Both the position numbers and the translations under genes were made by a program. A stretch of DNA of 64,000 bases, taken from assembly GCA_041667205.1 (NCBI GenBank), contig JBAYFL010000003.1, forward strand, positions 126,325-190,324, read 5' to 3'. This stretch comes from Verrucomicrobiia bacterium (GTDB taxonomy: Bacteria; Verrucomicrobiota; Verrucomicrobiia; CAIQCK01). Shown piece after piece: positions 5,032-54,102 of the stretch; the first letter of the stretch is position 1; every line of letters starts with the position of its first letter. The notes below the pieces were generated by a model. It had not been told where the DNA came from and did not search any database. It saw only the letters and a list, made by a program, of their open reading frames with translations.

Positions 5032-5036
5032 GAGGT

Positions 5037-29685: not shown

Positions 29686-30972
29686 TTACTTCGTCCAGCC
29701 GAGTTTGTTGTTCAGCCGCGCTTTGTGGTAGGCGACGCGCTCCGCGTTGCTCATGCGACCGAAGTCGGGCGAGCCGTCGGGGAACATCGGCCATGAGGTG
29801 ACGGCCGCAGCCGGTGCATACACACTCGCCTTGGCCGTGTCGCGCTGTAGCGGCGGTCTCTGACCGCCGGTTGTCCCAAGTTTCTTTGAGACGGTGACGG
29901 TGGTCGGGCCAGCGTAACTCATCGAGGTGTCGGTGAGCTGCATGTCCTCGTCCAACGGCCGCTGCGGCTTGATGCCAAGCCCTTGCAGAACGCCATGGTA
30001 GGCGCGCACGGCTTCCTCCGGTTGCACCTGGCCGTCCACGATCCGCCGCAGCATCTCGATGAACGCAAGCTGGTGCTCGGCGTTGTTGATCTTCCTGCCG
30101 AAGAGCGCAACGCGCGCGCCGTATTTCTGCGCCTCGGCAATGAGCTTGAAGGCGTCATAGGTGGTGCCTGCGCCACCGCCGAGGATTCCCACCGGCAGGC
30201 TCGGATCGTAGGCGGCAAGTTCCTCGGTGAGCTTCGGACCGTGATAGACCATCTTCAAAAACACCGGCCGGCCACGCTCCGTGACGCCCGCCAGCGAACG
30301 AACAATGCTGTCGTTGACGAACGCGCCAAGCTTCTCCGGCGCGAGGCCGCTGTCCACGTTCGGGTCGAAGATTTCGAGGAAGTAACGGAAGCCCTTCCGC
30401 TCCGCCTCCTCACGGAACTCCTTGAACTCGCGCAGCGACTGCATGTCGCGATGGATGCAGTTGACGAAGGTGACCGAATAGAGGCCGAGGTTCGCGCCAA
30501 GGACGCGTTCCTTCGGCTCGCACTCGACCTTGCCGCACTGGATATGGTCAATCGTCGCGCTGCGGAACGGCCGCGAGGCCTCGCCCACGTAACGGCCACC
30601 GCGCACGACCCAGATGTCGGTGGTATCGTTGGCTCGCGCCGCGGGCGTGATGTGGCTGTTGTCGAAAAGGCGCTCCTTGATGGTGAGCCGCTCGTTGGTC
30701 GAGGCGGACATCAACATGATGTCAATCAGCCCCTGTCGCGTCACCTCGCGGATCAACTCGCAGAAATCCTCCACCGTTCGATACTTCGCCTCGTCGGGGC
30801 GGAACGCCTCCGGCGACTTCAACGCGCGCATGCGGGGGTCGCTCGGACTGAGGCGGCCGAACGATTCGACGCCACGCGCCATGTCGGGATCCTTGGCGTC
30901 GGCAATAATGAACGTCCGCGTCTGCGGGTTGCTGCGGATTTCCGCCAGCTTGGTATCGAGTGATTTTTGCAT
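29686..30972 (-). CDS. Class I aldolase superfamily (LacD/FbaB/LsrF-like) TIM-barrel protein; last gene of the BMC operon
   Basis: 'FIIADAKD' beta1-Asp motif, 'PVFLKMVY' candidate Schiff-base Lys strand and 'GARVALFGRKI' C-motif parallel those of LsrF/YihT. Start chosen at MQKSLD. Confidence 0.45.
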   Translation of the reverse strand: MQKSLDTKLAEIRSNPQTRTFIIADAKDPDMARGVESFGRLSPSDPRMRALKSPEAFRPDEAKYRTVEDFCELIREVTRQGLIDIMLMSASTNERLTIKERLFDNSHITPAARANDTTDIWVVRGGRYVGEASRPFRSATIDHIQCGKVECEPKERVLGANLGLYSVTFVNCIHRDMQSLREFKEFREEAERKGFRYFLEIFDPNVDSGLAPEKLGAFVNDSIVRSLAGVTERGRPVFLKMVYHGPKLTEELAAYDPSLPVGILGGGAGTTYDAFKLIAEAQKYGARVALFGRKINNAEHQLAFIEMLRRIVDGQVQPEEAVRAYHGVLQGLGIKPQRPLDEDMQLTDTSMSYAGPTTVTVSKKLGTTGGQRPPLQRDTAKASVYAPAAAVTSWPMFPDGSPDFGRMSNAERVAYHKARLNNKLGWTK

Positions 30973-31070
30973 TTGGGAACCGTGGCTCGCGATTCGCAAT
31001 TTGCAATCCGTGGCCCTGACAACCGCCACCGCTCGAATCACAAATCACGTATCGCGAGCCACAATCATCC

Positions 31071-32129
31071 TTACTTGTTCAGCGCCTTCATGACTTCTTC
31101 GGTCACAATCTTCACGATCGAATCCAAATCCGGCGACTGCGCCGATCCTTCGCCGGGATTTGCGCAAACCACGCCGGGCCGGAACTCGCACGCGCAGTAG
31201 TCCGCTTCCTTCAAACCAGTGCGTTCGTCAGGCAGACCGAGGCCCTGTTTGATCTTCAGCAGGTCGCCGATCTTGCTGCTCGGAATCTGCGTAAACGCCG
31301 AGCCGAGGTGCGACGCGATGACGACCGTGCGGCAATACGCGTCCACGATCTCCATGAACCAGTAGGCCTTCTCCAACTCCTCGTTCCACGTAAGGACGCC
31401 GTGGTTCTGCAGCAGGATGCAGTTGTGGTCCTTGCAATACGGCAGGACCGTCTCCGCGAATGCCTTCGTGCCCGGCGTCTCGTATTGCGCCTTCGCGACC
31501 GTGCCGACAAGCACTTCCATCTCCGGAATCATGCAGCGCGGCACCTCCGCGCCCGTGATGGCAAATGCCGTCGCGTGCGGTGGGTGCGCGTGGACGCAGG
31601 CGCGGGCCTTTGGCTGCGCCTTCATCGCTTCGAGGTGCAGGTAAATCTCGCTGGTGCGCTTGGCTGTGCCGGCGAGCTGGTTGCCGTCGAGATCCACCAT
31701 GCAGATGTCCTCGACGCGCATGATTCCTTTGCTCACCAGCGTCGGCGTGCAAAGCACTTCGTTTGGGCCGATGCGGACGCTGACGTTGCCGCCGTTGCCG
31801 TCCACGTATTCGCGCTTCCAGAGCCGGTGCGAAACGCTAACGATGTGCTCCTTGATACGCTGAGCCTCCGGCGAGTTGAACAGCTTCACGTGCTCCGGCT
31901 TCCACTTCGGTGTGGCCGCCGCGGGCGCGGGCGCACCATAGGGATCGCCGCCGTTCGAGCCGGCACTGCTCGCAGAAGCAGAAACCCCGTCGAACTGGAT
32001 CGTGACGCCGATGCTGCGCAGAAAATCCTTCGCCGAAGGCGTAACAATGGCGTCGGCCGGCGCGGCGAACGTCTTCGCTCCGCTGGCTTTCAGGTGGGTG
32101 ACATCTTTGAGTGCGATGACTTGTTTCAT
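31071..32129 (-). CDS. Class II aldolase (fuculose/rhamnulose-1-phosphate aldolase-like) with extra N-terminal domain and C-terminal encapsulation peptide
   Basis: 'GNGGNVSVRI', 'HAHPPHATAFA', 'LQNHGVLTW' class II aldolase/adducin motifs; a C-terminal amphipathic 'DLDSIVKIVTEEVMKALNK'. Confidence 0.8.
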   Translation of the reverse strand: MKQVIALKDVTHLKASGAKTFAAPADAIVTPSAKDFLRSIGVTIQFDGVSASASSAGSNGGDPYGAPAPAAATPKWKPEHVKLFNSPEAQRIKEHIVSVSHRLWKREYVDGNGGNVSVRIGPNEVLCTPTLVSKGIMRVEDICMVDLDGNQLAGTAKRTSEIYLHLEAMKAQPKARACVHAHPPHATAFAITGAEVPRCMIPEMEVLVGTVAKAQYETPGTKAFAETVLPYCKDHNCILLQNHGVLTWNEELEKAYWFMEIVDAYCRTVVIASHLGSAFTQIPSSKIGDLLKIKQGLGLPDERTGLKEADYCACEFRPGVVCANPGEGSAQSPDLDSIVKIVTEEVMKALNK

Positions 32130-32419
32130 GATTTCTTTGGCGGCATGTAATTGATTGTGTCCACGATAAGCGCGTTGTAAGCGTCAATCGGGCTTTCTTG
32201 TTCAAATGGCTGCGCGGCCTCGCGGCCCTCGACGTAACCGATGATGTTGCCGGTGCCCGCGCCGAGATTGTCGTAGCACACCAGCGACGGTTCCGTTGGC
32301 TGACCCTTGCCAGCGAGCGCCTCGCGGTTCAACGGCTGCACGACAAGCCAGCGGCCGCCGGTGAACGAATCCACCTGCCGTGACAACGTCACTTTGCCGA
32401 TGACCTTGCCGAGTTTCAT
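32126..32419 (-). CDS. BMC vertex protein (BMC-P, EutN/CcmL/PduN family)
   Basis: 'MKLGKVIGKVTLSR...' EutN-type N-terminus; approximately 97 aa. Confidence 0.8.
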   Translation of the reverse strand: MKLGKVIGKVTLSRQVDSFTGGRWLVVQPLNREALAGKGQPTEPSLVCYDNLGAGTGNIIGYVEGREAAQPFEQESPIDAYNALIVDTINYMPPKKS

Positions 32420-32673
32420 GTGTCTATGATCCCGATGACGCTGTTCCGAATCGGCGTCTTGCGGCAGTTCAACAACTCCGTCGCGTGTTTGCCGTCGGTC
32501 GTCACCATGACGCGCGAGTGAAGCCCCGAGCCGAGCGGGTCAATCGCTATCGTCGGCGAACCGATTTCCACGCCGTCCGCCGTGATAGGCTGGCAAATCA
32601 CGAACCGCCATCCGTGTGCACTCTTGTGCTTTACGGTGGCCGTCACATTGCCATCTACGCGACAGAGCATCAT
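32416..32673 (-). CDS. BMC vertex protein (BMC-P) paralog
   Basis: 85 aa, 'MMLCRVDGNVTATVKHKS' EutN-like. Confidence 0.7.
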   Translation of the reverse strand: MMLCRVDGNVTATVKHKSAHGWRFVICQPITADGVEIGSPTIAIDPLGSGLHSRVMVTTDGKHATELLNCRKTPIRNSVIGIIDT

Positions 32674-32676
32674 GGT

Positions 32677-34146
32677 TTAGTAAATCCTCAACGAACCGGA
32701 CATCGTCAATCGGCGGAACCGAGTGTAAGTGAGCGGCGTCGTAATGCCCTCGCCGGTCGGCGTCGCGATGGAGTAGCTCAGGTAGCCTTCGCCACCGCCG
32801 CCGAGACCGGCGGTGCAAGGGCCGTTCGCGACAAAGATCGTCGTGTTCATCACCCGCGCCATCTCGGTGATCGTGTCGAGATTGCGGGAGTGAATGATCG
32901 CCGTGTGCCGGTAGTTGTGCTCGGCATGCTTCGACCGCTCAATGCCCTCGGCCGCGTCGCGCACGCGCACGACCGGCACGAACGGCATCATCTGCTCTTC
33001 CTCGACGAACGCGTGGTCCGCGTCCGTCTCGCCGAAGAGCAGCTCGCAACCGGACGGCACGTTCGCGCCGGCGGACTGCGCCAGCACGCTCACGTCCTTG
33101 CCGACGAGCTTCTTGTTCAACACCGGATGCGGACAGCCTGCGCCCTGGCCTTTTTCAAAAGTGAAAGCGTCTTTTGTCAGCGCCTCGATTTGCTGCGCAT
33201 TCAACTCGAACGCGCCGGCTTTCTTGAACGCCGCAATGAACCCGTTCCAAGCCTTGGCGGTGACAAAGATTTCCTTCTCACCGATGCAGAGCAGATTGTT
33301 GTCGTAACCGCCGCCGGCGATGATGCCCTTCGCGGCGTTATCGAAATCAGCTGTCTCATCCACCACGACGGGCGGATTGCCAGGGCCAGCGCAGATCGCG
33401 CGCTTGCCGGACGCCATCGCGGCCTTCACGACTGCCGGGCCGCCGGTCACGCACAGCAACGCGATATTCTGGTTGCTGCAAATCGCCTTGAAGCTCTCCA
33501 TCGTCGGCGGTTCAGCCGTGCAAAGCAGGTTCTCGATGCCGAGCGCGCCATGAATCGCCTCGTTGAACGCGCGCACCGCCATCGCCGCGCACTTGCTGGC
33601 AGCGGGGTGCGTGTTGAACACGACGGCGTTACCGGCGGAGACCATGTTGATCGCGTTGCAGCCGAGCGTAGGGATCGAGTGAGTCGAGGGCGTAATCGCG
33701 CCGATGACGCCGAACGGCGCGCACTCGTCAATCGTCGCACCGTTGTCGCCGGTCATCGCGACCCGGCGCAGAAAGTCCACGCCGGGAACTTTCTTCAGCA
33801 CCTTCAGCTTCTCGATCTTATGGTCAAGTCGACCAATTTTCGTCTCTTCCAACTCGATCCGGCCCCACGACTCCGCGTTCTTTTCGCAGAGCGTCTTGAC
33901 AATTTCCTCGACCTTGCGGCGGCCTTCAACTCCAGCCTTCGCAAGCTGCTTCTGCGCATGCGCAGCGGCTTCGCAGGCTTCGTTCGCGTCCGCGAAGATG
34001 CCGAAGCGGTTCGGCGCTCCAGCCTTCCGCGCAGACGGGCCGTGCGACGCCGGAGCAGGCGCTGCGGACATCGGCTGCTTCAGGCGGGCGATGACGTCCT
34101 GAACCAGATCGCGTATCTGTTGTTCGTTAATCGCAGGTGCGCTCAT
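32677..34146 (-). CDS. CoA-acylating aldehyde dehydrogenase (PduP/EutE family) with N-terminal encapsulation peptide
   Basis: N-terminal amphipathic 'INEQQIRDLVQDVIARL' plus an Ala/Pro linker, and catalytic Cys region 'LLCIGEKE'. Length and family fit PduP-like enzymes. Confidence 0.85.
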   Translation of the reverse strand: MSAPAINEQQIRDLVQDVIARLKQPMSAAPAPASHGPSARKAGAPNRFGIFADANEACEAAAHAQKQLAKAGVEGRRKVEEIVKTLCEKNAESWGRIELEETKIGRLDHKIEKLKVLKKVPGVDFLRRVAMTGDNGATIDECAPFGVIGAITPSTHSIPTLGCNAINMVSAGNAVVFNTHPAASKCAAMAVRAFNEAIHGALGIENLLCTAEPPTMESFKAICSNQNIALLCVTGGPAVVKAAMASGKRAICAGPGNPPVVVDETADFDNAAKGIIAGGGYDNNLLCIGEKEIFVTAKAWNGFIAAFKKAGAFELNAQQIEALTKDAFTFEKGQGAGCPHPVLNKKLVGKDVSVLAQSAGANVPSGCELLFGETDADHAFVEEEQMMPFVPVVRVRDAAEGIERSKHAEHNYRHTAIIHSRNLDTITEMARVMNTTIFVANGPCTAGLGGGGEGYLSYSIATPTGEGITTPLTYTRFRRLTMSGSLRIY

Positions 34147-34156
34147 GTTGTTTCAA

Positions 34157-34468
34157 TCACTTGCCGGTTTTGAAGATGATCTTGCCACCAACGTCCACGG
34201 CATCCACGATGCCGACAACGACCGCGTCCACCGGCGCGTCCTTCAGGCCATTAGCAAGCCGGGCGGAACTGCCCTGGCAAAACATCACCATCTCGTCCTC
34301 GCCTGCGCCGACGCTGTCCACCGCCACAATGGTGTTCACGCCGGGTTTGAGCTTCGTGTGGTCCTTGTCGTCCACGAGCATGGGCCGAAGGATGAGCAGC
34401 TTGCGGCCGAGCATCTTCGGGTCCTTCTTCGTGGCAACAACCGAGCCTTCAACTTTAGCCAAAAACAT
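34157..34468 (-). CDS. BMC vertex protein (BMC-P) paralog
   Basis: 'MFLAKVEGSVVATKK' EutN/CcmL N-terminus. Confidence 0.75.
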   Translation of the reverse strand: MFLAKVEGSVVATKKDPKMLGRKLLILRPMLVDDKDHTKLKPGVNTIVAVDSVGAGEDEMVMFCQGSSARLANGLKDAPVDAVVVGIVDAVDVGGKIIFKTGK

Positions 34469-34541
34469 AAGGCCTCCGGGTTAATACGTAATGCGCAATA
34501 CGTAAGTTCTGCCTTACGCATTACTCGTTACGTATCACGCT

Positions 34542-34832
34542 TTACTTCTTCGATGATGCCGCGATCTTCGGCAGCACCACGCTGGTTTCCTCGTGCGGAC
34601 GAGCGATGACGTGGACGCTGACGACCTGGCCAATGGCCTTGGCCGCTTGAGCGCCCGCGTCGGTCGCCGCTTTGACAGCGGCAACATCGCCAACCACAAC
34701 GGCGGTCACGAGGCCGCTGCCGACCTTTTCCATGCCGACGAGTTTGACGTTGGCGGCCTTGAGCATTGCGTCCGTCGCCTCGACGAGCGCCACCAAGCCC
34801 TTTGTTTCAATCATTCCAATTGCATCTGCCAT
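34542..34832 (-). CDS. BMC-H hexameric shell protein (PduA/EutM family)
   Basis: '[25 protein letters not shown]...GDVAAVKAA' canonical BMC domain. Confidence 0.85.
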
Positions 34833-34861
34833 GTTCGTTCTCCTGTTCTATCTTTCTTTGG

Positions 34862-35983
34862 CTACTTCCTGCTTTCCAAAAGTTTTTTCACTTCGCGCGC
34901 CACGACAATTTCCTCGTTCGTCGGCACAACCATGATCTTCGCGCGCGAATCGGTCGTGCTGATGACTGTTTCCTGTCCTCGCTGATGAGCCGCGTTCTTT
35001 GCCGGATCGAGCCGGATGCCAAACCAATCGAGGTTGGCGCAAACCATTTCGCGCAACTGCGCCTGATTTTCGCCAATGCCGGCCGTGAACACGATGGCAT
35101 CGGCGCCGTTGAGCTGAACGAGGTAAGCCCCGATCCAGTGCCGGATGCTGTGCGCAAACACTTCCATCGCTAACTTCGCCCGCGCGTTACCTTGCTCGGC
35201 GGCGGTCGCGATATCGCGCACGTCGTTCGAGACGCCGCTGATGCCGAGCAGACCGCCTTCCTTGTTCATCGAACGGACAATCTGGTCAATCGTCAGCCCG
35301 TGCGTCTTCATCAGGAACGGAATCGCAAACGCGTCCAACTCGCCCACCCGGTTGTTGTGCGGCAGACCGGACTGCGGGCTCATGCCGAGCGAGTTGCCGA
35401 CGCCGCGGTTGCCGTGCGTCGCGCCGATGCTGTTGCTGCCGCCAAGGTGACACGAGATCACGCGGAGGTCGCTGCCACCGAGCAGTTTTGCAACGCGCTC
35501 GGCGATGTAGCGATGACTCGCGCCGTGAAACCCATAGGGCCGCACGCCCCAATCGGTCCATTGCTGCGGCACGGCATAACGCTTCGCCGCCTCTGGAGCA
35601 TTGACCCACCACGCCGTCTCAAACAACCCAACCATCGGCGTTCGCGGCAGCTTCTCACGGAACTTGCGGATACCGGCGATGTAAGGCGGGTTATGCGACG
35701 GCGCCACCTCGTTCATCTCCTCCATCGCCTTTAGCACGTCCTCGGTCAGCTCTGCGCAACCGAGAACGCCCTTGGCCAGCACGGTCTTGAAACCAACTGC
35801 CGTCAACTCCTGCAAGCGCGGGAGCACGCCGCTGGCTTTCATTTCCGCGAGCGACTTCTCGATCGCGTCGCCGTAATCGGTAACGCGCTCGAAGCCGCCC
35901 TTGGCCAGCGTCGCCTCCGTCGTCATGTCGAGCAGACGATACTTGAAGGAGGTCGAGCCGATGTTGGCGATAAGGATTTTCAT
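34862..35983 (-). CDS. ackA: Acetate/propionate kinase
   Basis: Start MKILIANIGSTSFKYRL with an AGGAG RBS (the longer ORF from 36052 is an extension). 'GFHGASHRY' motif. Confidence 0.85.
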   Translation of the reverse strand: MKILIANIGSTSFKYRLLDMTTEATLAKGGFERVTDYGDAIEKSLAEMKASGVLPRLQELTAVGFKTVLAKGVLGCAELTEDVLKAMEEMNEVAPSHNPPYIAGIRKFREKLPRTPMVGLFETAWWVNAPEAAKRYAVPQQWTDWGVRPYGFHGASHRYIAERVAKLLGGSDLRVISCHLGGSNSIGATHGNRGVGNSLGMSPQSGLPHNNRVGELDAFAIPFLMKTHGLTIDQIVRSMNKEGGLLGISGVSNDVRDIATAAEQGNARAKLAMEVFAHSIRHWIGAYLVQLNGADAIVFTAGIGENQAQLREMVCANLDWFGIRLDPAKNAAHQRGQETVISTTDSRAKIMVVPTNEEIVVAREVKKLLESRK

Positions 35984-36055
35984 TGCTCCTGAACGCGAAA
36001 GACGCCTGGCACCGTGACCTTCACAGCGCCGCGCTTCCTCTAACGTCAACAAGCC

Positions 36056-36337
36056 TTACGCTGAAATCCACTTGCCGAGACCGGGCAATTCCTCGTGCGG
36101 GCGCGGAATGACGTGCACGCTGACGACCTCGCCCACCTGGGCTGCCGCAGCCGCGCCGGCGTCCACAGCGGCCTTCACCGCCGCCACGTCGCCCTTGAAG
36201 AATGCCGCGACCAGACCCGAACCGACTTTTTCCCAGCCGGTGAGTTGGACGTTGGCGGCCTTCAACGCTGCGTCGCATCCTTCGAGCAACGCCGTGAGAC
36301 CCTTCGTTTCGATCATACCAATTGCTTGCAGTGCCAT
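36056..36337 (-). CDS. BMC-H shell protein
   Basis: Start [13 protein letters not shown] with an AAGGAGA RBS; canonical BMC domain. Confidence 0.85.
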
Positions 36338-36347
36338 GTGCGTCTCC

Positions 36348-36617
36348 TTATCCAATGAATGACTTCAACAGTTCCGGGCTGGGGCGCGGAATGACGTGGC
36401 TGGCGACCAGTTCGCCCACCTTGCCCGCCGCCGCCGAACCCGCGTCCACCGCGGCCTTCACGCTGCCGACATCGCCCTTCAACAGGACGGTGACGTAGCC
36501 GCCGCCGATCTGGATGGTCTTGATCAACGACACGTTGGCGGCTTTCACCGCTGCGTCGCTGGCCTCAACCGCGCCGACGTAACCTTTCGTTTCTATGATG
36601 CCAATACCTTCGTTCAT
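36348..36617 (-). CDS. BMC-H shell protein
   Basis: Start [12 protein letters not shown] with an AGGAGA RBS; canonical BMC domain. Confidence 0.85.
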
Positions 36618-36658
36618 TTTTCTCCTATCGTTTTTCCGGGCGGCCAACAGGGCCGTCC

Positions 36659-37330
36659 TTACTTCAACAACTCTACTCTGCTGTCCGGCCGCAAGCCACA
36701 GGCGTTCCCCTCGTCGGTGTCTATGTGCACCTCGAGCTTGAACGACTTGTCCACGCGGACAACCAAATCCTCAAATACCGCGCCGCATTCGCCGCCGACG
36801 CGCAGTTTCATCTTATCGCCATGCTTGACGCCGTAAAATGCCGCGTCCTCAAGGTTCATGTGCACGTGCCGCAACGCGCGAATCACGCCCTCCTCCACCT
36901 CAAAAAATCCCTTCGGCCCCATCAACATGCACCCCGGCGTGCCCTTGATGTTGCCGCTCATCCGCACCGGCACGTCAAAACCAAGCATAATGGAATCCGT
37001 GAACGCCAACTCCACCTGGTTCAACGTGCGGCAGGGACCAAGAATGCGCAGGTTTGATATGACGCGGCTCCGCGGCCCGATCAGCGTCACCATCTGCTCG
37101 GCAGCATACTGGCCGTCCTGATAGAGCATTTTCATCGGCTTGAGTTGCGCCCCCTTGCCGAACAACGCCTCCACCGCCTCTTGCGTCAGATGACAATGCC
37201 GCGCGCTGACGTTGACGACCAGCGGATTCGGCGGCGCTTTCGGCACCGGCGCCGTGGGACGGAACCGCGCGTAAACCGCTTCCCGCACGATTTGCTCGAC
37301 CGTGGACCGCTGGATTTGAGGCACGCTCAT
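36659..37330 (-). CDS. pduL: PduL-type phosphotransacylase with N-terminal encapsulation peptide
   Basis: Start MSVPQIQRSTVEQIVREAV (amphipathic EP). Two PduL repeats with 'SARHCHL' / 'LRHVHMN' metal-site His motifs. The 5' part of the annotated ORF (37331-37525) is promoter DNA. Confidence 0.8.
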   Translation of the reverse strand: MSVPQIQRSTVEQIVREAVYARFRPTAPVPKAPPNPLVVNVSARHCHLTQEAVEALFGKGAQLKPMKMLYQDGQYAAEQMVTLIGPRSRVISNLRILGPCRTLNQVELAFTDSIMLGFDVPVRMSGNIKGTPGCMLMGPKGFFEVEEGVIRALRHVHMNLEDAAFYGVKHGDKMKLRVGGECGAVFEDLVVRVDKSFKLEVHIDTDEGNACGLRPDSRVELLK

Positions 37331-37373
37331 GGCTGTTCCAGATTCAATCAATATCTTCCAAAACCGAGCAAGA

Positions 37374-37402
37374 TAAATAACGGATTTACCAATATCTGTC
37401 AA
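37374..37402 (-). promoter_or_regulatory. Candidate sigma70 promoter (minus strand) TTGACA-N17-TATTTA for the BMC operon
   Basis: Read on the minus strand. Lies in the AT-rich divergent region between pduL and the DeoR gene, which also carries an 8-bp direct repeat CAATATCT at 37349 and 37390. Confidence 0.35.
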
Positions 37403-37444
37403 CAACTTCTTGCATATTTTTTCCGCCGGTGCCAAATTCCGGCC

Positions 37445-38203
37445 GTGAAAGCGCCCGAACGATTCCGCCGAATTCAGGACTTGCTCGGCCAGCACGAGTT
37501 CCTCGACCTCGCCACGCTGGCTCACGACCTGAAGGCGTCAGAATCTACCATCCGCCGCGACCTCGACCAACTCGCCGCCAAAGGCGCCCTCAAGCGCACC
37601 CACGGCGGGGCAATGGCCGTCGAGCACAAGACAGACGAGTTGAATTTCGTGGTCCGCGACACCCGCCAAGCGGATGAGAAAGACCTGATCGGGCGCGCCA
37701 CGGCCGCGCTCGTGGAGAACGGCATGTCGGTTATCATTGACGGCGGCACCACCACCTACCACGTCGCCAAGCATCTTGGCGGCAAGCGCATCCAAGTCAT
37801 CACTAATTCGCTCCCCGTCGCCAACCAGTTCAGCAATTCCAGCATGGTGGAGACGATCATGTGCGGCGGGTTCATCTTCCCCCGCATTGGCGTGCTGCTG
37901 GGGCCGCTCGCAGAAGAATCTTTCTCAAAACTCCACGCCGATGTCGCGATCATGAGCGCTGGCGGCATCACCAGCGAAGGCATCACCAACTCGAACAACC
38001 TGATCGTGGCGGTGCAACAGAAGATGATGGCCGCCGCCAGTCGCGTCATCCTGTGTCTGGATCACACCAAGTTCGGGCGGCACGCACTCTCTTTTGCCGC
38101 ACCGCTGGAGAAGATTCACACCGTCATTACCGACAAGGACACCCCGCGCGACCAGATTGCCATGCTGCAAAAGCAGCGCATCGAAGTCATCGTCGCCCGC
38201 TAG
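37445..38203 (+). CDS. DeoR/GlpR-family transcriptional regulator, divergent from the BMC operon
   Basis: GTG start giving MKAPERFRRIQDLL. HTH 'STIRRDLDQLAAKGALKRTHGGA' and a C-terminal DeoR sugar-phosphate-binding domain. Confidence 0.75.
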   Translation: MKAPERFRRIQDLLGQHEFLDLATLAHDLKASESTIRRDLDQLAAKGALKRTHGGAMAVEHKTDELNFVVRDTRQADEKDLIGRATAALVENGMSVIIDGGTTTYHVAKHLGGKRIQVITNSLPVANQFSNSSMVETIMCGGFIFPRIGVLLGPLAEESFSKLHADVAIMSAGGITSEGITNSNNLIVAVQQKMMAAASRVILCLDHTKFGRHALSFAAPLEKIHTVITDKDTPRDQIAMLQKQRIEVIVAR

Positions 38204-38805
38204 CTTTGCTCTTCCTTTTCGTCCTCTTCCTGGACAGCGCGCAGCTTGTCGTCGGCTTCATCACTCCCGTCCCACTCGGCGGGCGACCACGAAAGAATCT
38301 CGTTGATCTCGTCGTAGCAGTGGAGGCTGCTGCCATTGAAATAGCGGTCATTGAGTTTCGCCACCAACTCCTCTTCCAACTCCAGATCATCCACGGCGTG
38401 CGCGTAATGATGCGTCTTGTTCAGAAGCTTCACCCGCAACTCGATGAGGTTGTCCACCAACTCACGATAACTGCTCTGCTCATCGTCCACGAACAACGGC
38501 AGCGCGAACAGCTTGCCTCCGGGGTCTTCGCCCGGCTGTAGCGCGATCTTCAGCCGCAACCGGCCTTCATCCATCTCTGACTCCGCGGTAAACAAGGCAA
38601 ACGCCTTCGCAAACGTCGCCCGCTGGAACCCGATGGCATAATACTCCCCCAGCCGTTCCGCGATGTCGCGGAACTGGCGCGGGTCGAGCACGCTCAATCC
38701 CTCGCGTGGCCAGTAAATCTCATCGCTGGTCTTTTCCACCCACCAGTTCATGTCGTTGCCGAGGCGCACAACGATCCATTGCGGCAATATTATTTCCTTT
38801 TCCAC
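38200..38805 (-). CDS. Hypothetical protein with acidic C-terminus
   Basis: 201-aa ORF convergent with the DeoR gene; no motifs recognised. Confidence 0.4.
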   Translation of the reverse strand: MEKEIILPQWIVVRLGNDMNWWVEKTSDEIYWPREGLSVLDPRQFRDIAERLGEYYAIGFQRATFAKAFALFTAESEMDEGRLRLKIALQPGEDPGGKLFALPLFVDDEQSSYRELVDNLIELRVKLLNKTHHYAHAVDDLELEEELVAKLNDRYFNGSSLHCYDEINEILSWSPAEWDGSDEADDKLRAVQEEDEKEEQS

Positions 38806-38993: not shown

Positions 38994-41864
38994 TCACTGC
39001 GGGCGAATCTTCGCGGCAAGGTCGGTCTTGAGTTCGCCGGGCAGGAGGGTGAGTTTGCCGGCGTGGGCGGTCGCTTTCTCGGTGCGCACGGGCTTGCCCT
39101 TCCACGTTTCCCACCATTCCACCGCGTAGGTGCCGTCCGCGAAGCCGTCGAGGGTAATCCGCGAGGGTGGCACGGGCGGCACGGCGGATTTCTGGTGGTT
39201 GAACCAATCGCTCTCCTGGTTCTGCATCCAGACGATGCGGGGGCCGCCGACGGCCCGCAACGCCGCGACAAGCAGATTCGGCCGGTCGAGGACTTTGCAG
39301 CCGGTGAAGGCGTAGCGGGTGATGCGCATCCAGTCGCCGCCGAGGTTGTCCACGCGGATGCGATGTTTGCCGGCGGGCACGTCCACGGCCACGTCTTCGT
39401 CATAGACGGATTCCCACAGCTTCCACTTCGGCTGGTAGATCCACTGCTTGCCGATCTTCTCGCCGCAGGGGAACTCGCGGTTGAGTTTCTGTTCGCCGTC
39501 CACCCAGACGCGCAGGAGGCCGCTACGGGAGACGCGCCCGACGGTGATGATGAATTTGCCCGCGCGCGGGAACTCCACGACGAAGGTGGGCGGGTTGATG
39601 AGGTCGTGGTGCCCCATGCCGTGGAGTAGTTCGCGAATCTCCGCCGGGTCGTTGACGGTGCCGTCGCGTTGTATCCTGAACTCGCTGGCCGCGGGCTTGC
39701 CCCATTTGCTGACGGGCGAGAGGACGATGTCGCGCGTGATGGGCGATGCGGGCGGGTCCACATACTCGGTGGCGGCCACGCTGACTTGTTCCCATCGCGT
39801 GGTGCCGAAGGGAAGGCCTTTGGCGAAGTTGGCGATGGCGGTGAAGTGGAAGTAGAGGTTCAACGGCTCGATGTAGTTCTCGTGCCACCACGGCATCGGG
39901 ATGCCGCAGCAGCCACTGCAAAGCGCGGCCCAGTTGGCGTTGTGCAGGCCCCAGCCCTTCGGGTCCTTGTCGGCGGTGGAGGAATGGCTGCGGATGCCGA
40001 ACTCGCCGAAGATGTGCGGCTTCGCGAAGTTCGTCCACTGTTCGAGGCAGTAGCGGCGCACCTGCTCGGCGACGTTGCCGTCGTTGTTCGTGTAGCAATG
40101 GGTCTGCACAATGTCCATCCTCGGAATCCGCCAGCACGCCTCCGGGCCGGTCTTGCCCCACCAGCTCGTCGTGATGAGATGCCGATACGGGTCGAGCGCG
40201 GCGAGATAGTCGGACATCTCGCGATGCCACGCGTTCTTCGTCTCCTCGGTCGTGTCGGCCCATCCCTCAAATTCGTTGCCGAACTCCCAGCAGAGGATCT
40301 GCGGCGAGTAACCCCATCGCGCGACGGTGTAGCGCAGCCGTTTCTTATAGAGCGAGCGCGACGGCTCGCCGGTGAACCACTCGCTGACTTTCTCGCAGGG
40401 GCCACCGTTGGCTTTGTTGAACGGATTCGCCCGCCAGCCGCCCTCGCGGAAATCCTGATGCGTGTCCATGCAGAGCATGTAGTAGAAGTCCAGTTCCGCG
40501 GCGAGGTTGAGCAGGCTGTCGAGCCGTGCCGCCTGCGCCTGACGATACCAGCCGAGCCGATCTTCCCATTCGATGCCGAGGCTGGAGCTGGACATCCACC
40601 AACGGTTGTAGTTCTCGCCCTTCGCCGCCATCTTGCGGATCGCGTCGGGGCCGGTCTGCCCAGCGGTGTGATATCCGGGGAGGTTGTGACCGATCGGCAC
40701 GAACGACACGCCGGAATCGAACTGCAGATAATGCGGGTCCACGCGGCTCTGGCGCAGGAACCCCTTCCCCGCCGACGCCTTCACGGCAAACTCGCCCGCG
40801 TCCTTGCTCACGCTGCCGCTGCGGTCCTTCGCCGTGAGCTTCACGCGCAACGGCCCCGGCTCGACGCAAGCAACGCGCACGCACCAGCGGCCCTCGCCGA
40901 CCGGCGACATCACCTCCACGCCGTCCCGCACCTCGCGCCGGTAGTCCACCATAAAGAACCCCGGCTGCGTGAACTGTCGCCCCGACGCCGTCGTCACCGT
41001 CGCATCGAGCGCAACTTGGTCGGGATCGAACGGGTTCTCCCACGTGCCGCGCAGATCCACGCTCAATTCCAGCTTGCCGAAGCGCGGCACCGTCGCGCTT
41101 GTTGCACTGACCTTCCCAATAGCGAGCGGCTCGCGATGCGGCTCGATGTCGCCCGCGAACTTCTCCGGCAGCGTGTCAAAACCGATCTTGAGCAACGTGA
41201 CCACCTTCTTGCCAACGGGAAAATCCCCGGGGCGCAAGTTCATCTCGAAGCCCTGCGTCGTTTCGTTCACGCGACAGCGCAGCTCGCGAAATCCCTCGCC
41301 CGCGAACGCGACTGCGCGTCCATCGCCCAACTCCACCAGCAACGCCTCGCAATCACCGGAAACGTTGCCGCCCACCTTGCCGTGCGCGACCGGCCGCGCA
41401 AATAGCCGCCGCCCTGCAAACGCCTTCCGGTCGAATGAAATCGTCGCCCACAGCCCGGCCGTGAGCGACAGTGGCGCAGTCTTCTCCGTCTCCAAGTGCA
41501 GCACCGCGCCCTTCGCCGTCGGCTCCAATGCCAGCGTGTAGCGCATCGGCGCGGCACCCTCGCGAATCACCCACGTCCCGCTCTGCCGCAACCATCCTTT
41601 GCGATCCACCTCCGGCCCGCTTTCGATCTTGCCTGCGTCGAGCCGTTCGTGAATCCAAGCGTCGTGCCAAAGTGTGATGCTCAACCTCACCTCCGGCCCG
41701 CCCGCCCGCCTCACCGCCACCGTGCCTGGCGCGCGATAAACGATTTCATTCCCTGCGACGGCCAAAATAAACTCTTTGCCCCTGCTCTCCCAGCGTTGGG
41801 CAGACACAGGCGAGACGAGCGACAGAAACACGAACAATGTGGCGGCGTAAGAGAGGTTCTTCAT
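38994..41864 (-). CDS. Large secreted glycoside hydrolase-like protein (GH5-like TIM barrel with accessory beta-domains)
   Basis: Start MKNLSYAATLFVFLSLVSPVSA (signal peptide). 'ILCWEFGNEFEGW' NEP-type acid/base motif. Confidence 0.55.
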   Translation of the reverse strand: MKNLSYAATLFVFLSLVSPVSAQRWESRGKEFILAVAGNEIVYRAPGTVAVRRAGGPEVRLSITLWHDAWIHERLDAGKIESGPEVDRKGWLRQSGTWVIREGAAPMRYTLALEPTAKGAVLHLETEKTAPLSLTAGLWATISFDRKAFAGRRLFARPVAHGKVGGNVSGDCEALLVELGDGRAVAFAGEGFRELRCRVNETTQGFEMNLRPGDFPVGKKVVTLLKIGFDTLPEKFAGDIEPHREPLAIGKVSATSATVPRFGKLELSVDLRGTWENPFDPDQVALDATVTTASGRQFTQPGFFMVDYRREVRDGVEVMSPVGEGRWCVRVACVEPGPLRVKLTAKDRSGSVSKDAGEFAVKASAGKGFLRQSRVDPHYLQFDSGVSFVPIGHNLPGYHTAGQTGPDAIRKMAAKGENYNRWWMSSSSLGIEWEDRLGWYRQAQAARLDSLLNLAAELDFYYMLCMDTHQDFREGGWRANPFNKANGGPCEKVSEWFTGEPSRSLYKKRLRYTVARWGYSPQILCWEFGNEFEGWADTTEETKNAWHREMSDYLAALDPYRHLITTSWWGKTGPEACWRIPRMDIVQTHCYTNNDGNVAEQVRRYCLEQWTNFAKPHIFGEFGIRSHSSTADKDPKGWGLHNANWAALCSGCCGIPMPWWHENYIEPLNLYFHFTAIANFAKGLPFGTTRWEQVSVAATEYVDPPASPITRDIVLSPVSKWGKPAASEFRIQRDGTVNDPAEIRELLHGMGHHDLINPPTFVVEFPRAGKFIITVGRVSRSGLLRVWVDGEQKLNREFPCGEKIGKQWIYQPKWKLWESVYDEDVAVDVPAGKHRIRVDNLGGDWMRITRYAFTGCKVLDRPNLLVAALRAVGGPRIVWMQNQESDWFNHQKSAVPPVPPSRITLDGFADGTYAVEWWETWKGKPVRTEKATAHAGKLTLLPGELKTDLAAKIRPQ

Positions 41865-41945
41865 GGCAACAGCCAAGGAACCTACCCGTTGCCCGCAGCG
41901 ACTCAAAGGCAAAAACACAGAACAGGCAAGACGCCCGTCCTACGA

Positions 41946-43481
41946 TTACTTCTTCGGCGCAGTCAGCATTGGGAAGTCGTCGGTGCGGAATGGCGACGCG
42001 GGCAGGCCCACCTTGTTCCAGAGGTTGACGACGGGGAAGTTGGCCCAGCCGTAACGCACGGCGACCGGTTTGGCAACCTTGTCGCTGCACACGACGATCT
42101 TGTCGCCCTGAATCTCAGCCTGCGCGTTGACGAACTTCTTGTCCGCGCCGGCGATGGCGAAGCCTTTGAGCGCGCCGTCCTTGGCGGCGAGGCCGCCGCC
42201 AAGATGGGTGAAGCTGAGGATGGCTTTGTTGCCCTGCACCTTCATGCTGGCATAGGCCGGACCGGAGAACTCGATCTTCTCGCCATAAGCGATCGCCCGC
42301 GCGGCGAGTGCGAGACGCGCGCCAACCGGGTCCTTCTGTTTCGGATGCACGTCGTTCTCATCGCCAACGTCGGTGATAACGGCTTGCGCGGTCTTGGGCA
42401 AATTCAGCGCAGTCAACAGTTGCGCCTCGCGTAGTTCCGCCCAACCGCTTTCCTTCGGCTCGGCTTCAATCTTCATGAACGGCGCGAGTTGGACGAACAG
42501 GAATGGGAAAGCATAGCCCCAATCCTTGCGCCAGTTCTGGATCATTGCGGGGAAGAGCTTGCGATACTGAAAGGCGCGGCCGGCGTTGGACTCGCCCTGA
42601 TACCAGATGGCGCCAGCGACGGCATAAGGCTCCAGCGGGACGATCATGGCGTTGTAGAGGCCGCACGGGCGCTGCATGCTGGTGGTCGGATTCTGCGGCA
42701 GGCGCGGCACCTGTTTCTTCGCAGCCTTGGCCTTGGCGAGAATCTCCTTGTTGCGCACCTCGACTTTCGGCCAGTTCTTGATCGCTTCGGCGTGGTTGGC
42801 GAAGATTTCGGGAAACTCCTTTTCCAATACGCCCCGCTTCGTCCACGCCTCGGCGGGCGTGCCGCCGACGTTGGAACTGATGAGGCCCACCGGCACCTTC
42901 AGCGCCGCGCGCAAGTGCTTGCCGAAGAAGTAACCGACGGCGCTGAACGCCGGCAGCGTTTCCGGGCTGCACTCCTGCCACGCGACGGGCGGCTGGCCGG
43001 GCGACGCGGCGGGCAGCTCGGTCTGGGCTTCGTCCTTGGAAACGCGCGGGATGGTGATGAGCCGCAGCATCGGGTCTTTGCACTCCGCGATCACCTTCTC
43101 CGCGTCGGTGCTGCCCTTGACGTTCCACTGCATGTTCGACTGGCCGCTGCAAATCCAGACCTCGCCGACAAGGACGTTCTTTAGTTCGACGCTGTTCTTG
43201 CCGCAGATGGTCATCTTGAACGGCCCGCCCGCCTTCAGCGGCTTCAACCAGACCTTCCACTTGCCGCCCTTGGCGACCGTGGAGACCCCCTGACCGCAGA
43301 ACTTCACCGTCACCTTCTCGCCGTCGTCGGCCGTGCCCCAAATCGGCACCTTCTGACCTTGCTGTAGCACCGCGTTGTCCGTGAAAAGCCCGTGCGGTTT
43401 GACCACGGCAAACGCCGCCGTCGCCAGCATCAGCGCGAAAGTGGAAACTGCGATCAGACAAACTCGATTGAACCGCTGCAT
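41946..43481 (-). CDS. Sialate O-acetylesterase-like SGNH/DUF303 carbohydrate esterase, secreted
   Basis: Start MQRFNRVCLIAVSTFALMLATAAFA, with an AAGGAG RBS 6 nt upstream. 'VWICSGQSNMQ' GDSL-like motif. Tandem DUF303 domains. Confidence 0.7.
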   Translation of the reverse strand: MQRFNRVCLIAVSTFALMLATAAFAVVKPHGLFTDNAVLQQGQKVPIWGTADDGEKVTVKFCGQGVSTVAKGGKWKVWLKPLKAGGPFKMTICGKNSVELKNVLVGEVWICSGQSNMQWNVKGSTDAEKVIAECKDPMLRLITIPRVSKDEAQTELPAASPGQPPVAWQECSPETLPAFSAVGYFFGKHLRAALKVPVGLISSNVGGTPAEAWTKRGVLEKEFPEIFANHAEAIKNWPKVEVRNKEILAKAKAAKKQVPRLPQNPTTSMQRPCGLYNAMIVPLEPYAVAGAIWYQGESNAGRAFQYRKLFPAMIQNWRKDWGYAFPFLFVQLAPFMKIEAEPKESGWAELREAQLLTALNLPKTAQAVITDVGDENDVHPKQKDPVGARLALAARAIAYGEKIEFSGPAYASMKVQGNKAILSFTHLGGGLAAKDGALKGFAIAGADKKFVNAQAEIQGDKIVVCSDKVAKPVAVRYGWANFPVVNLWNKVGLPASPFRTDDFPMLTAPKK

Positions 43482-43614
43482 TATCATCTCCTTGGTTGAA
43501 TTCTCAGTCAGCGAACGGACGATGGTTTTATCGGCTCCCACGCGGATAGCAAGCCGGATTTCAGCGTTTCGCGGCTTGGAACGGCGGCACACGCGGTGTA
43601 AAGTCAGGCACTCC

Positions 43615-47834: not shown

Positions 47835-48806
47835 CTACTTCCTTCGCGCAGTCTTCTTCTGCCCCGGCTTCTTGCCGCGCTTGGCGCGGGGGGCGGAGGC
47901 TTTGCGCGGGCGGGCGCGCTGGCGCGACTTCAGGAGGGAGATGAGCGTCTCGCCGATGATGGCGGGCGTTTCGGCCACGGCGATGCCGGCGGCCCGCAAC
48001 GCCTCGATCTTCGCGGCGGCGGTGCCTTTGCCACCACTGATGACCGCTCCAGCGTGGCCCATGCGGCGGCCGGGGGGCGCGGTCATGCCGGCGATGTAGG
48101 CGACGACCGGCTTTTTGCAATGTTTGCCGATCCAAGCCGCCGCTTCTTCCTCAGCGCTGCCGCCGATTTCGCCGATGAGGACGATGGAGTCCGTGCCGGG
48201 GTCGTCGTTGAAAAGCTTCACCGCGTCGAGGTGCGAGGTGCCGTTGACCGGGTCGCCGCCGATGCCGATACAGGTGCTCTGGCCGACGCCGCGGGTAGTG
48301 AGCTGCCAGACGGCTTCGTAGGTTAGCGTGCCGCTGCGGCTGATGACGCCGACGCGGCCGGGCTTGTGAATGTAACCGGGCATGATGCCGATCTTGCACT
48401 GGCCGGGCGTGATGATGCCGGGACAGTTCGGGCCGATGAGCCGCACGCCCTTGTGCCCGGCGAGAACGCGCTTCACCTTGACCATGTCGGCGACGGGGAT
48501 GCCCTCGGTAATACAGACGATGAGCCGGATGCCCGCGTCGGCCGCTTCGAGGATGGCGTCGCCCGCGAACGCCGCCGGCACAAAGATGCACGTGGCGTTG
48601 GCGCCGGCCTGCTTCACCGCTTCGGCGCAGGTATCAAAGACGGGCATTTTGACGCCGTCGAGGTCCACTTCGCCCGCGCGACCGGGCGTGACGCCGCCGA
48701 CGACGTTGCCAGCATACTTGTGGCAATGGGTGGCGTGGAACTTGCCGGCGGAGCCAGTAATGCCTTGGAAGATGACGCGGGTGTTTTTGTCAACGAGGAT
48801 GCTCAT
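47835..48806 (-). CDS. sucD: Succinyl-CoA synthetase alpha subunit with unusual Lys/Arg-rich C-terminal tail
   Basis: Canonical SucD through '...ETLISLLK', then a 30-aa tail '[30 protein letters not shown]'. Confidence 0.9.
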
Positions 48807-48810
48807 CGTA

Positions 48811-54007: not shown

Positions 54008-54102
54008 CCGTTATCGGATTTCGCGAAAGAAGTCAGGCACAGCTTTCACCACCATCCGTGCTGGCTTCGACTAATACGCATTCTCCATCAGATAATGTCA
54101 TT

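What the first reader, a model, noticed from the sequence alone, without database searches (positions are those of the whole stretch)
29686..38203. Complete Planctomycete/Verrucomicrobia-type (PVM-like) bacterial microcompartment operon with divergent DeoR regulator
There are eleven co-directional minus-strand genes with tight spacing. In order they are PduL (N-terminal EP), two BMC-H, AckA, one BMC-H, BMC-P, CoA-acylating aldehyde DH (N-terminal EP), two BMC-P, class II aldolase (C-terminal EP), and a class-I-aldolase-like gene. A DeoR regulator is divergently transcribed from an AT-rich 115-bp region that holds a TTGACA-N17-TATTTA promoter and a CAATATCT direct repeat. Three BMC-P paralogs, three BMC-H, a class II aldolase, an aldehyde DH, a PTAC and AckA are the defining content of the PVM-type BMC used for L-fucose/L-rhamnose (lactaldehyde) catabolism. 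Encapsulation peptides are readable on PduL, the aldehyde DH and the aldolase.
Basis: partly seen in the sequence, partly recalled or inferred. Interest (0 to 1): 0.55.

Follow-up and report, generated by a model that had tools for sequence, protein, structure and literature searches.

The report
Fucose/rhamnose bacterial microcompartment operon (PVM type)
This is an ordinary, intact copy of the known Planctomycete/Verrucomicrobia microcompartment operon for breaking down fucose and rhamnose; its only fresh aspect is a conserved last gene with no family annotation, which folds like a class I aldolase.

Summary
Window 29686-38203 carries eleven co-directional minus-strand genes and a divergent DeoR regulator. 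In order they are PduL, two BMC-H, acetate kinase, BMC-H, BMC-P, CoA-acylating aldehyde dehydrogenase, two BMC-P, class II aldolase, and a 428-aa protein with no Pfam hit.

Content, gene order and nearest relatives (Verrucomicrobia MAGs, Fontisphaera persica) place it in the PVM class proper. It is not the separate "PVM-like" class. The Ldh-type dehydrogenase PvmO, present in 27 of 85 related loci, is missing here.

Terminal helices separated from the enzyme core by variable linkers are conserved on PduL (N-terminal), the aldehyde dehydrogenase (N-terminal) and the aldolase (C-terminal).

That unit is about 230-fold enriched in DeoR-PduL intergenic regions and is probably the DeoR operator.

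The eleventh gene is the least ordinary part:
- It follows the PVM aldolase in 59 of 68 informative genomes.
- A conserved lysine aligns with the Schiff-base lysine of an LsrF-like aldolase.
- It has a conserved C-terminal tail that a non-microcompartment homolog lacks.

It may be a second, encapsulated ketose-1-phosphate aldolase; this is untested.

Overall this is a new member of a known kind, of low to moderate interest.

The parts
37445..38203 (+). DeoR/GlpR-family transcriptional regulator (252 aa, GTG start), divergent from the operon
   Evidence: Pfam HTH_DeoR and DeoRC. NCBIfam GlpR/AgaR/UlaR/FucR-like, E 1e-32 to 1e-46, all below equivalog cutoffs. Called as 252 aa in L002.
37331..37444 (.). 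114-bp AT-rich divergent control region (GC 0.41)
   Evidence: Aligned with relatives.
37374..37402 (-). Promoter-like TTGACA-N17-TATTTA for the operon. The -35 TTGAC is conserved in all 36 related intergenic regions.
   Evidence: Not listed by the consensus promoter scan.
37392..37402 (-).
   Evidence: The unit family TTGNNAGA[TA] is about 230-fold enriched in related DeoR-PduL spacers.
37351..37361 (-). Repeat unit TTGGAAGATAT, 41 bp downstream of the first and just upstream of the PduL start. Probable DeoR operator half-site.
   Evidence: Conserved in L002-L004.
36659..37330 (-). PduL-type phosphotransacylase (PvmB homolog, 223 aa). N-terminal encapsulation peptide at aa 8-23 (37262-37309), then a Pro-rich linker.
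   Evidence: Pfam PTAC 244 bits. Two RHxH motifs. N-terminal helix conserved across phyla with a variable linker. Hydrophobic moment at the 97th percentile.
36348..36617 (-). BMC-H shell hexamer protein 1 (89 aa)
   Evidence: Pfam BMC 94 bits. Start taken from relatives.
36056..36337 (-). BMC-H shell hexamer protein 2 (93 aa)
   Evidence: Pfam BMC 94.9 bits. 76% identical to BMC-H3.
34862..35983 (-). Acetate/propionate-family kinase (PvmG homolog, 373 aa)
   Evidence: Pfam Acetate_kinase 329 bits. TIGR00016 321 bits, above its cutoff.
34542..34832 (-). BMC-H shell hexamer protein 3 (96 aa)
   Evidence: Pfam BMC 92.5 bits.
34157..34468 (-). BMC-P vertex pentamer protein 1 (103 aa, PvmH position)
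   Evidence: Pfam EutN_CcmL 99.4 bits.
32677..34146 (-). CoA-acylating aldehyde dehydrogenase (PvmJ homolog, 489 aa). N-terminal encapsulation peptide at aa 7-24 (34075-34128), then an Ala/Pro-rich linker.
   Evidence: NCBIfam PRK15398 562 bits. Catalytic-Cys motif NNLLCIGE. Conserved helix with a variable linker.
32416..32673 (-). BMC-P vertex pentamer protein 2 (85 aa, PvmK position)
   Evidence: Pfam EutN_CcmL 76.8 bits. 27-31% identical to the other two BMC-P.
32126..32419 (-). BMC-P vertex pentamer protein 3 (97 aa, PvmM position)
   Evidence: Pfam EutN_CcmL 70.8 bits.
31071..32129 (-). Class II aldolase, the signature enzyme (PvmN homolog, 352 aa). Catalytic domain at aa 94-269. C-terminal encapsulation peptide at aa 333-352 (31074-31133). 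N-terminal 45-aa Eut-type domain (31995-32129).
   Evidence: Pfam Aldolase_II 149 bits. HxH and NHG metal motifs. C-terminal helix conserved with a variable linker. Published C-terminal EP for this enzyme class. N-terminal domain hits TIGR02536 at E 1.4e-6.
29686..30972 (-). Eleventh gene (428 aa). Unannotated class-I-aldolase-fold protein with conserved Lys240 (30253-30255), a disordered linker at aa 354-389, and a conserved C-terminal tail at aa 394-428 (29689-29793).

Best explanation
This is a PVM-type catabolic bacterial microcompartment (metabolosome) operon of an uncultured Verrucomicrobium.

Shown here:
- Three BMC-H hexamer and three divergent BMC-P pentamer genes are interleaved with four enzymes.
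- All four enzymes keep their catalytic motifs.
- Three of them carry terminal helices separated from the core by variable linkers.

Inferred from the characterised Planctopirus limnophila system and established pathway knowledge:
1. L-fuculose-1-P or L-rhamnulose-1-P, made by enzymes encoded elsewhere, is cleaved by the class II aldolase to DHAP and L-lactaldehyde inside the shell.
2. The aldehyde dehydrogenase converts lactaldehyde to lactyl-CoA.
3. PduL recycles CoA and gives lactyl-phosphate.
4. The acetate-kinase homolog makes lactate and ATP.
5. The shell confines the toxic aldehyde.

Expression probably runs from a TTGACA-N17-TATTTA promoter. It is probably controlled by the divergent DeoR-family regulator binding 10-bp direct-repeat units (TTGNNAGA[TA]), likely in response to a sugar phosphate.

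The eleventh gene is a conserved part of the locus. It is most likely a Schiff-base (class I) aldolase-type enzyme acting on a phosphorylated ketose. Its role is unproven.
For: - Domain hits for all shell and enzyme genes.
- Catalytic motifs are intact.
- The same gene order, DeoR | PduL-H-H-AckA-H-P-AldDH-P-P-aldolase-(PvmO)-gene11, appears in Fontisphaera persica and dozens of Verrucomicrobia and Planctomycete genomes with differing flanks.
- Published PVM definition and pathway.
- Polyhedral bodies were seen on rhamnose in a related Limisphaera strain.
- Encapsulation-peptide pattern: conserved helix plus variable linker on PduL, AldDH and aldolase. This agrees with published positions.
- The repeat unit occurs at 13.6 per kb in 36 DeoR-PduL spacers against 0.06 per kb elsewhere in the same loci. 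It has 10-bp periodicity and sits next to a universally present TTGAC.
Against: - No PvmO-type dehydrogenase in the locus or window, so NAD+ recycling is unexplained here.
- No fucose or rhamnose isomerase, kinase or transporter among the window ORFs tested.
- Substrate, induction, shell assembly and regulator binding are all inferred, not tested.
- In this window the exact repeat units lie at 0 and +41 from the -35. In most relatives they lie at -14, -24 and -34, so the regulatory logic may differ.
- The consensus promoter scan did not call the promoter.
Confidence: 0.85

Rival explanations
1. The locus is a 'PVM-like' or GRM5-related microcompartment of the Firmicute type. In that type, lactaldehyde is reduced to propanediol and processed further, rather than handled as in PVM proper.
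For: It shares the class II aldolase signature enzyme and a DeoR regulator with PVM-like loci.
Against: - It has a BMC-P triplet and an equal BMC-H to BMC-P count. [quoted passage not shown]
- No glycyl-radical enzyme or diol dehydratase is present.
- Gene order matches more than 60 PVM-lineage loci from Verrucomicrobia and Planctomycetes.
- PVM-like AldDH, PTAC and BMC-P are described as different.
Confidence: 0.03
2. The compartment's main or additional substrate is not L-fuculose-1-P or L-rhamnulose-1-P. It is another ketose-1-phosphate, cleaved by the eleventh gene product acting as a second, class I signature aldolase that feeds an aldehyde to the same core.
For: - Class I aldolase fold, with sulfo-ketohexose-1-P and tagatose-bisphosphate aldolases among the top matches.
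- K240 aligns with the Schiff-base lysine motif.
- It is linked to the PVM aldolase in 59 of 68 genomes.
- Outside BMC loci it lies directly downstream of a prokaryotic ketohexokinase in two genomes.
- A tail-less homolog lies next to an FGGY kinase and a short class II aldolase.
Against: - No enzymology exists.
- There is no significant sequence hit to any curated aldolase family above cutoff.
- Relatives with this fold include non-aldolases such as LsrF (a thiolase) and ADH synthase.
- Other neighbourhoods of family members are uninformative.
Confidence: 0.35
3. The eleventh gene is a cytosolic accessory enzyme, for example one handling DHAP or a sugar phosphate after it leaves the shell. 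Its C-terminal tail would be a structural or catalytic element that folds back on the barrel, not a targeting peptide.
For: - The tail is modelled with high confidence (pLDDT 85-91) after a disordered linker.
- By my reading of the tail sequence it is basic and has fewer aliphatic residues than the published EP composition.
- Its hydrophobic moment is only at the 88th percentile of the protein.
- The tail is retained in copies not adjacent to BMC genes.
Against: - The linker-plus-conserved-terminal-helix architecture matches the EP layout.
- The one homolog verified in a non-BMC context lacks the tail.
- Copies without adjacent BMC genes may be satellite loci of genomes that still carry a PVM locus. 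This was not checked.
Confidence: 0.3

Closest known systems
PVM microcompartment of Planctopirus (Planctomyces) limnophila (Erbilgin et al. 2014; classes in Axen 2014 and Sutter 2021)
   Same: - Class II aldolase signature enzyme with a C-terminal EP.
- PduL, acetate kinase, CoA-acylating AldDH and a DeoR regulator.
- A BMC-P triplet plus BMC-H.
- The same relative gene order, PvmB-D-E-G-H-J-K-M-N.
   Different: - Three BMC-H here, against two stated for PVM.
- No PvmO dehydrogenase.
- No room for a PvmL-type gene between the second and third BMC-P. The spacing in the Planctomycete loci leaves about 600 bp more, which I take to be that gene.
- The class-I-aldolase-fold gene at the operon end is not named in any paper I could read. 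I could not check whether P. limnophila has it.
PVM-like and GRM5 aldolase-containing microcompartment loci (mostly Firmicutes)
   Same: Homologous class II aldolase. A DeoR regulator in most. Lactaldehyde as the presumed intermediate.
   Different: Shell complement, AldDH/PTAC/BMC-P lineages, synteny and host phyla all differ. GRM5 adds a glycyl-radical diol dehydratase.
DhnA/FbaB/LsrF/LacD-type class I aldolases (PF01791 superfamily), including SFP aldolase YihT. This is the comparison for the eleventh gene.
   Same: - The conserved lysine on the sixth strand aligns with the VVKTYY lysine.
- GG and GR(K/N)I phosphate-binding-like motifs.
   Different: - Only 12-17% identity.
- No Pfam hit, and far below NCBIfam cutoffs.
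- About 90 extra residues inserted in the N-terminal half.
- An extension of about 75 residues, made of a linker and a conserved C-terminal tail.

Membership tests
PVM bacterial microcompartment locus | BMC-H shell genes (PF00936), at least two | tested here: met
   Three hits of 92-95 bits.
PVM bacterial microcompartment locus | Triplet of divergent BMC-P (PF03319) paralogs | tested here: met
   Three hits. Pairwise identity is 27-31%. Each maps to the same position across phyla.
PVM bacterial microcompartment locus | Class II aldolase (PF00596) signature enzyme with a C-terminal encapsulation peptide | tested here: met
   149 bits. Conserved C-terminal helix after a roughly 60-aa variable linker. 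Matches the published pattern. Encapsulation itself was not tested.
PVM bacterial microcompartment locus | Metabolosome core: CoA-acylating AldDH, PduL-type PTAC and an acetate-kinase homolog in the locus | tested here: met
   Catalytic motifs.
PVM bacterial microcompartment locus | DeoR-family regulator adjacent | tested here: met
   Divergent arrangement conserved in relatives.
PVM bacterial microcompartment locus | Lactate/malate-dehydrogenase-type PvmO (predicted NAD+ recycling) | tested here: not met
   tblastn of a PvmO from L013 finds nothing in the window (best E 1.2). It is present in 27 of 85 related loci.
PVM bacterial microcompartment locus | Host in Planctomycetes or Verrucomicrobia | tested here: met
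   The nearest relatives of the eleventh gene and the syntenic contigs are Verrucomicrobia MAGs and Fontisphaera persica.
PVM bacterial microcompartment locus | Required for and induced by L-fucose/L-rhamnose; polyhedral bodies formed | not testable with these tools
   Literature on relatives only.
PVM-like locus (Axen 2014 cluster 4.2) | [quoted passage not shown] | tested here: not met
   3 BMC-H to 3 BMC-P with a BMC-P triplet. PVM synteny and Verrucomicrobial relatives.
Encapsulation peptide (on PduL, AldDH, aldolase) | A roughly 15-20-aa amphipathic helix at a terminus, joined by a poorly conserved linker, outside the catalytic domain | tested here: met
   Domain boundaries. Conservation pattern and hydrophobic moment at the 97-98th percentile. 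A short 215-aa aldolase occurs in a non-BMC cluster.
Encapsulation peptide (on the eleventh gene) | Same features, and absent from non-BMC homologs | tested here: inconclusive
   Linker plus conserved tail is present. It is absent in the non-BMC homolog P0141. However, the tail is basic, has few aliphatic residues and is weakly amphipathic.
Class I (Schiff-base) aldolase superfamily, DeoC/LacD/FbaB type (eleventh gene) | (beta/alpha)8 barrel closest to this family | tested here: met
   [not shown]
Class I (Schiff-base) aldolase superfamily, DeoC/LacD/FbaB type (eleventh gene) | Conserved Schiff-base lysine on strand 6 | tested here: met
   K240 is conserved in 48 of 55 sequences. It aligns with the K of VVKTYY in the window's own DeoC/LacD aldolase (hhalign 83%) and lies within one residue of the K of the KTYY segment in LsrF. 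I take that K to be the LsrF Schiff-base lysine from memory of the LsrF literature; this was not checked here.
Class I (Schiff-base) aldolase superfamily, DeoC/LacD/FbaB type (eleventh gene) | Matches the curated family model (PF01791 or an NCBIfam equivalog) | tested here: not met
   No Pfam hit at E<=10. NCBIfam best is 24 bits against a cutoff of 241.
Class I (Schiff-base) aldolase superfamily, DeoC/LacD/FbaB type (eleventh gene) | Aldol cleavage activity | not testable with these tools
   No enzymology is available.

The most novel reading that the evidence does not exclude
The unannotated eleventh gene is the founding example of a large family with no Pfam model. The family has more than 1000 clusters at 50% identity, and its members are named 'hypothetical' wherever a source names them. 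It would be a second, class I (Schiff-base) ketose-1-phosphate aldolase that is a core component of PVM microcompartments and is targeted to them by a non-canonical C-terminal peptide. If so, the textbook PVM pathway is missing an enzyme, and possibly a substrate.
Probability: 0.35. Interest if true: 0.55.

Novelty: new member of a known kind. Interest (0 to 1): 0.3.

Why it matters
PVM microcompartments let Verrucomicrobia and Planctomycetes consume fucose- and rhamnose-rich algal and plant polysaccharides, which matters for carbon cycling. One more copy adds little to that picture.

Two by-products could be useful:
1. A sharply defined candidate operator, made of 10-bp direct repeats next to the -35 and conserved across 36 species. 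This gives a testable model for how DeoR controls organelle formation.
2. A highly conserved class-I-aldolase-fold gene that closes most PVM operons yet has no family annotation. None of the papers I could read mention it. If it is an encapsulated enzyme, the accepted reaction scheme of this organelle is incomplete.

Tried and rejected
- Pfam and NCBIfam on the eleventh gene gave nothing, or only hits far below cutoff.
- Sequence searches against PDB were not significant.
- The first AlphaFold run used 30 close homologs and was too poor to use (pLDDT 59). A 55-sequence alignment fixed this.
- The diverse alignment could not seed the genome scan. The closer alignment was used instead.
- The AFDB fold library was unavailable.
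- Erbilgin 2014 is not held. A second protein search seeded from a Planctomycete copy did not bring up Planctopirus limnophila. Whether the model organism's locus carries this gene therefore stays open.
- Neighbourhoods of three further distant homologs were uninformative.
- Six of the eight relatives whose copy has no BMC gene nearby had unrelated neighbours.
- The consensus promoter scan found no site. Terminator-like sites were no more frequent than in shuffles.
- Rfam found only a distant tRNA.
- I rejected the idea that the eleventh gene replaces PvmO, because both genes co-occur in 27 related loci.

Full report
**Observation**

- PduL phosphotransacylase (Pfam PTAC, 244 bits).
- Two BMC-H.
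- Acetate kinase (329 bits).
- A third BMC-H.
- A BMC-P.
- An aldehyde dehydrogenase of the CoA-acylating PduP/EutE type (NCBIfam PRK15398, 562 bits, cutoff 403).
- Two more BMC-P.
- A class II aldolase (149 bits).
- A final 428-aa ORF.

A DeoR-family regulator (HTH_DeoR plus DeoRC) is transcribed divergently.

Gene calls in five related contigs refine several starts:
- PduL 36659-37330.
- BMC-H 36348-36617 and 36056-36337.
- AckA 34862-35983.
- Eleventh gene 29686-30972.
- DeoR 37445-38203.

With the first-pass starts, gaps run from -8 to +98 bp. With the corrected starts I compute -4 to +98 bp.

The control region is 114 bp with GC 0.41, in a window of about 0.6 GC. TTGACA-N17-TATTTA is exactly present on the operon strand. 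CAATATCT occurs only twice in the 64 kb, both times here.

**What it is**

The same block recurs in the cultured Verrucomicrobium Fontisphaera persica and in dozens of Verrucomicrobia and Planctomycete genomes. Its order is DeoR | PduL, H, H, AckA, H, P, AldDH, P, P, aldolase, then optionally an Ldh-like gene, then the eleventh gene. Flanking genes differ between these genomes, so the block behaves as a unit.

The nearest contig is a groundwater Verrucomicrobia MAG. Its eleventh-gene protein is 89% identical, and the contig is syntenic with the window on the low-coordinate side.

The literature defines this content as the PVM class: class II aldolase signature enzyme, DeoR, acetate kinase and a BMC-P triplet, restricted to Planctomycetes and Verrucomicrobia. 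'PVM-like' is a separate class, mainly in Firmicutes, with a different shell complement and GRM5-like synteny.

Catalytic motifs are intact:
- AldDH has NNLLCIGE.
- PduL has two RHxH motifs.
- The aldolase has HxH and NHG.

The three BMC-P are only 27-31% identical to one another. Each maps to a fixed position across phyla.

**Encapsulation peptides**

Orthologs from 14 loci spanning both phyla show three conserved terminal helices:
- An N-terminal helix on PduL (RSxVEQIVREAVYARF here), followed by a variable Pro/Ala linker before the invariant core.
- An N-terminal helix on the AldDH (INEQQIRDLVQDVIARL here), followed by a variable Ala/Pro linker.
- A helix at the extreme C-terminus of the aldolase (DLDSIVKIVTEEVMKAL here), after a variable linker.

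Their hydrophobic moments rank at the 97-98th percentile within each protein. These positions agree with the published survey.

A class II aldolase in a non-microcompartment sugar cluster is only 215 aa, against 352 aa here.

**Regulation**

I extracted the DeoR-PduL spacers from 36 related loci. All contain TTGAC. The unit TTGNNAGA[TA] on the operon strand occurs at 13.6 per kb in these spacers, against 0.06 per kb in the remaining 647 kb of the same loci. Spacing is predominantly 10 bp, and the preferred positions are -14, -24 and -34 relative to TTGAC.

In this window and its closest relatives the exact units sit at 0 and +41. A one-mismatch unit lies at -13 by my reading of the sequence.

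I infer that this array is the DeoR operator. Whether the regulator activates or represses cannot be told from sequence.

**Mechanism**

By homology with the P. limnophila model, the proposed pathway is:
1. The aldolase cleaves L-fuculose-1-P or L-rhamnulose-1-P to DHAP and lactaldehyde.
2. The AldDH makes lactyl-CoA.
3. PduL makes lactyl-phosphate.
4. The kinase makes lactate and ATP.
5. The shell confines the aldehyde.

This pathway is inferred. What is missing here is the PvmO Ldh/Mdh-type enzyme proposed to regenerate NAD+. A PvmO gene lies between the aldolase and the eleventh gene in 27 of 85 related loci, but it has no match in this window. None of the other window ORFs I scanned is a fucose or rhamnose isomerase or kinase.

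**The eleventh gene**

- It has no Pfam hit even at E<=10. Its relatives are labelled hypothetical wherever a source gives a name.
- The family is large: 8000 or more hits in the word-indexed search, and 1049 representative clusters at 50% identity.
- A model built on a 55-sequence alignment is confident (pLDDT 86). It shows a (beta/alpha)8 core, a disordered linker at 354-389 and a confident terminal helix at 409-424.
- A profile of the family aligns with the window's own DeoC/LacD-family aldolase (50189-51070) at 83% probability. That alignment places the conserved K240 on the lysine of VVKTYY, which I take to be the Schiff-base position by analogy with LsrF. It also aligns GRKINNAEH with GRNVFQAEH. 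A weak phmmer alignment to LsrF agrees to within one residue.
- In 59 of 68 species-level loci with enough upstream sequence, the gene lies downstream of the PVM aldolase on the same strand.
- Where it does not, two loci have a prokaryotic ketohexokinase immediately upstream, and one of these has GlpX downstream.
- A 340-aa homolog without the C-terminal extension sits beside an FGGY sugar kinase and a short class II aldolase in a cluster without shell genes.
- The C-terminal tail (WPxxxDGxPDFxxMxxAQRxAYHxARLxRxFG) is conserved in both phyla. It is basic and only weakly amphipathic, so its role as a targeting peptide is open.

My best reading is a Schiff-base ketose-1-phosphate aldolase associated with the organelle. 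I give this modest confidence.

**Verdict**

The finding is real and correctly interpreted. It belongs to a class with hundreds of catalogued members. It is a new member of a known kind.

The candidate operator array and the unannotated terminal gene are the only elements that go beyond the literature I could read.

Noticed in passing
window 31995-32129 (-), aldolase aa 1-45; linker 31860-31994: The class II aldolase has an extra N-terminal domain of about 45 aa (VIALKDV...IVTPSAKDFLRSIGV), followed by a Gly/Ala/Pro/Ser-rich linker. The domain resembles the short domain at the ends of Eut proteins: TIGR02536 at E 1.4e-6, with weaker hits to the EutQ and EutT N-termini. It is present in relatives too. 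Its function is unknown; it may be shell- or cargo-binding.
   Followed up: partly
window 31164-31196 (-), aldolase aa 312-322: A three-cysteine motif (CACEFRPGVVC here; C-x2-C-DNxEWRPGV-x-C in Verrucomicrobial relatives) is conserved in the otherwise variable linker before the aldolase C-terminal encapsulation peptide. It could be a metal or redox site.
   Followed up: no
window 30973-31070 (gap between the aldolase and the eleventh gene): In 27 of 85 related loci this position holds a 316-aa Ldh/Mdh-type PvmO gene. Here the gap is 98 bp, and no PvmO homolog exists anywhere in the window.
   Followed up: yes
L001-L085, DeoR-PduL intergenic regions: Tandem 10-bp direct repeats, TTG(G/A/C)(A/T)AGAT(T/A)T, abut the -35 TTGAC in nearly all related Verrucomicrobial PVM loci. 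This is a candidate lineage-wide DeoR operator.
   Followed up: partly
window 50189-51070 (-) and 51858-52859 (-): A canonical DeoC/LacD-family class I aldolase (LsrF/ADH-synthase-like, with a VVKTYY motif) lies near a Dak1 dihydroxyacetone-kinase subunit. Succinyl-CoA ligase subunits lie at 47835-50033.
   Followed up: no
window 38994-41918 (-) and 41946-43637 (-): A 974-aa GH5-like/DUF5060 protein and a SASA-type carbohydrate esterase lie next to the locus. The syntenic relative L002 has enolase at the corresponding place. This suggests a glycan-degrading gene insertion beside the microcompartment operon.
   Followed up: no
window 38200-38805 (-): A 201-aa acidic protein with no Pfam or NCBIfam hit is convergent with DeoR and overlaps its end by 4 nt. 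It is conserved at the same place in L002 and L003.
   Followed up: no
window 4072-6668 (+): Restriction-modification genes (AccI-like endonuclease, N6_Mtase/Eco57I methylase) in a stretch of lower GC, 0.55-0.59.
   Followed up: no
window 54001-55000: A sharp GC dip to 0.45 contains a 283-aa ORF with a weak nucleoside 2-deoxyribosyltransferase-like hit. It may be foreign DNA.
   Followed up: no
window 55382-59383 (-): A 1333-aa protein combines a hydrazine-synthase-alpha middle domain with a C-terminal FGE-sulfatase domain.
   Followed up: no
window 16304-16378 (+): tRNA-Val (anticodon TAC). It is the only RNA gene found in the window.
   Followed up: yes
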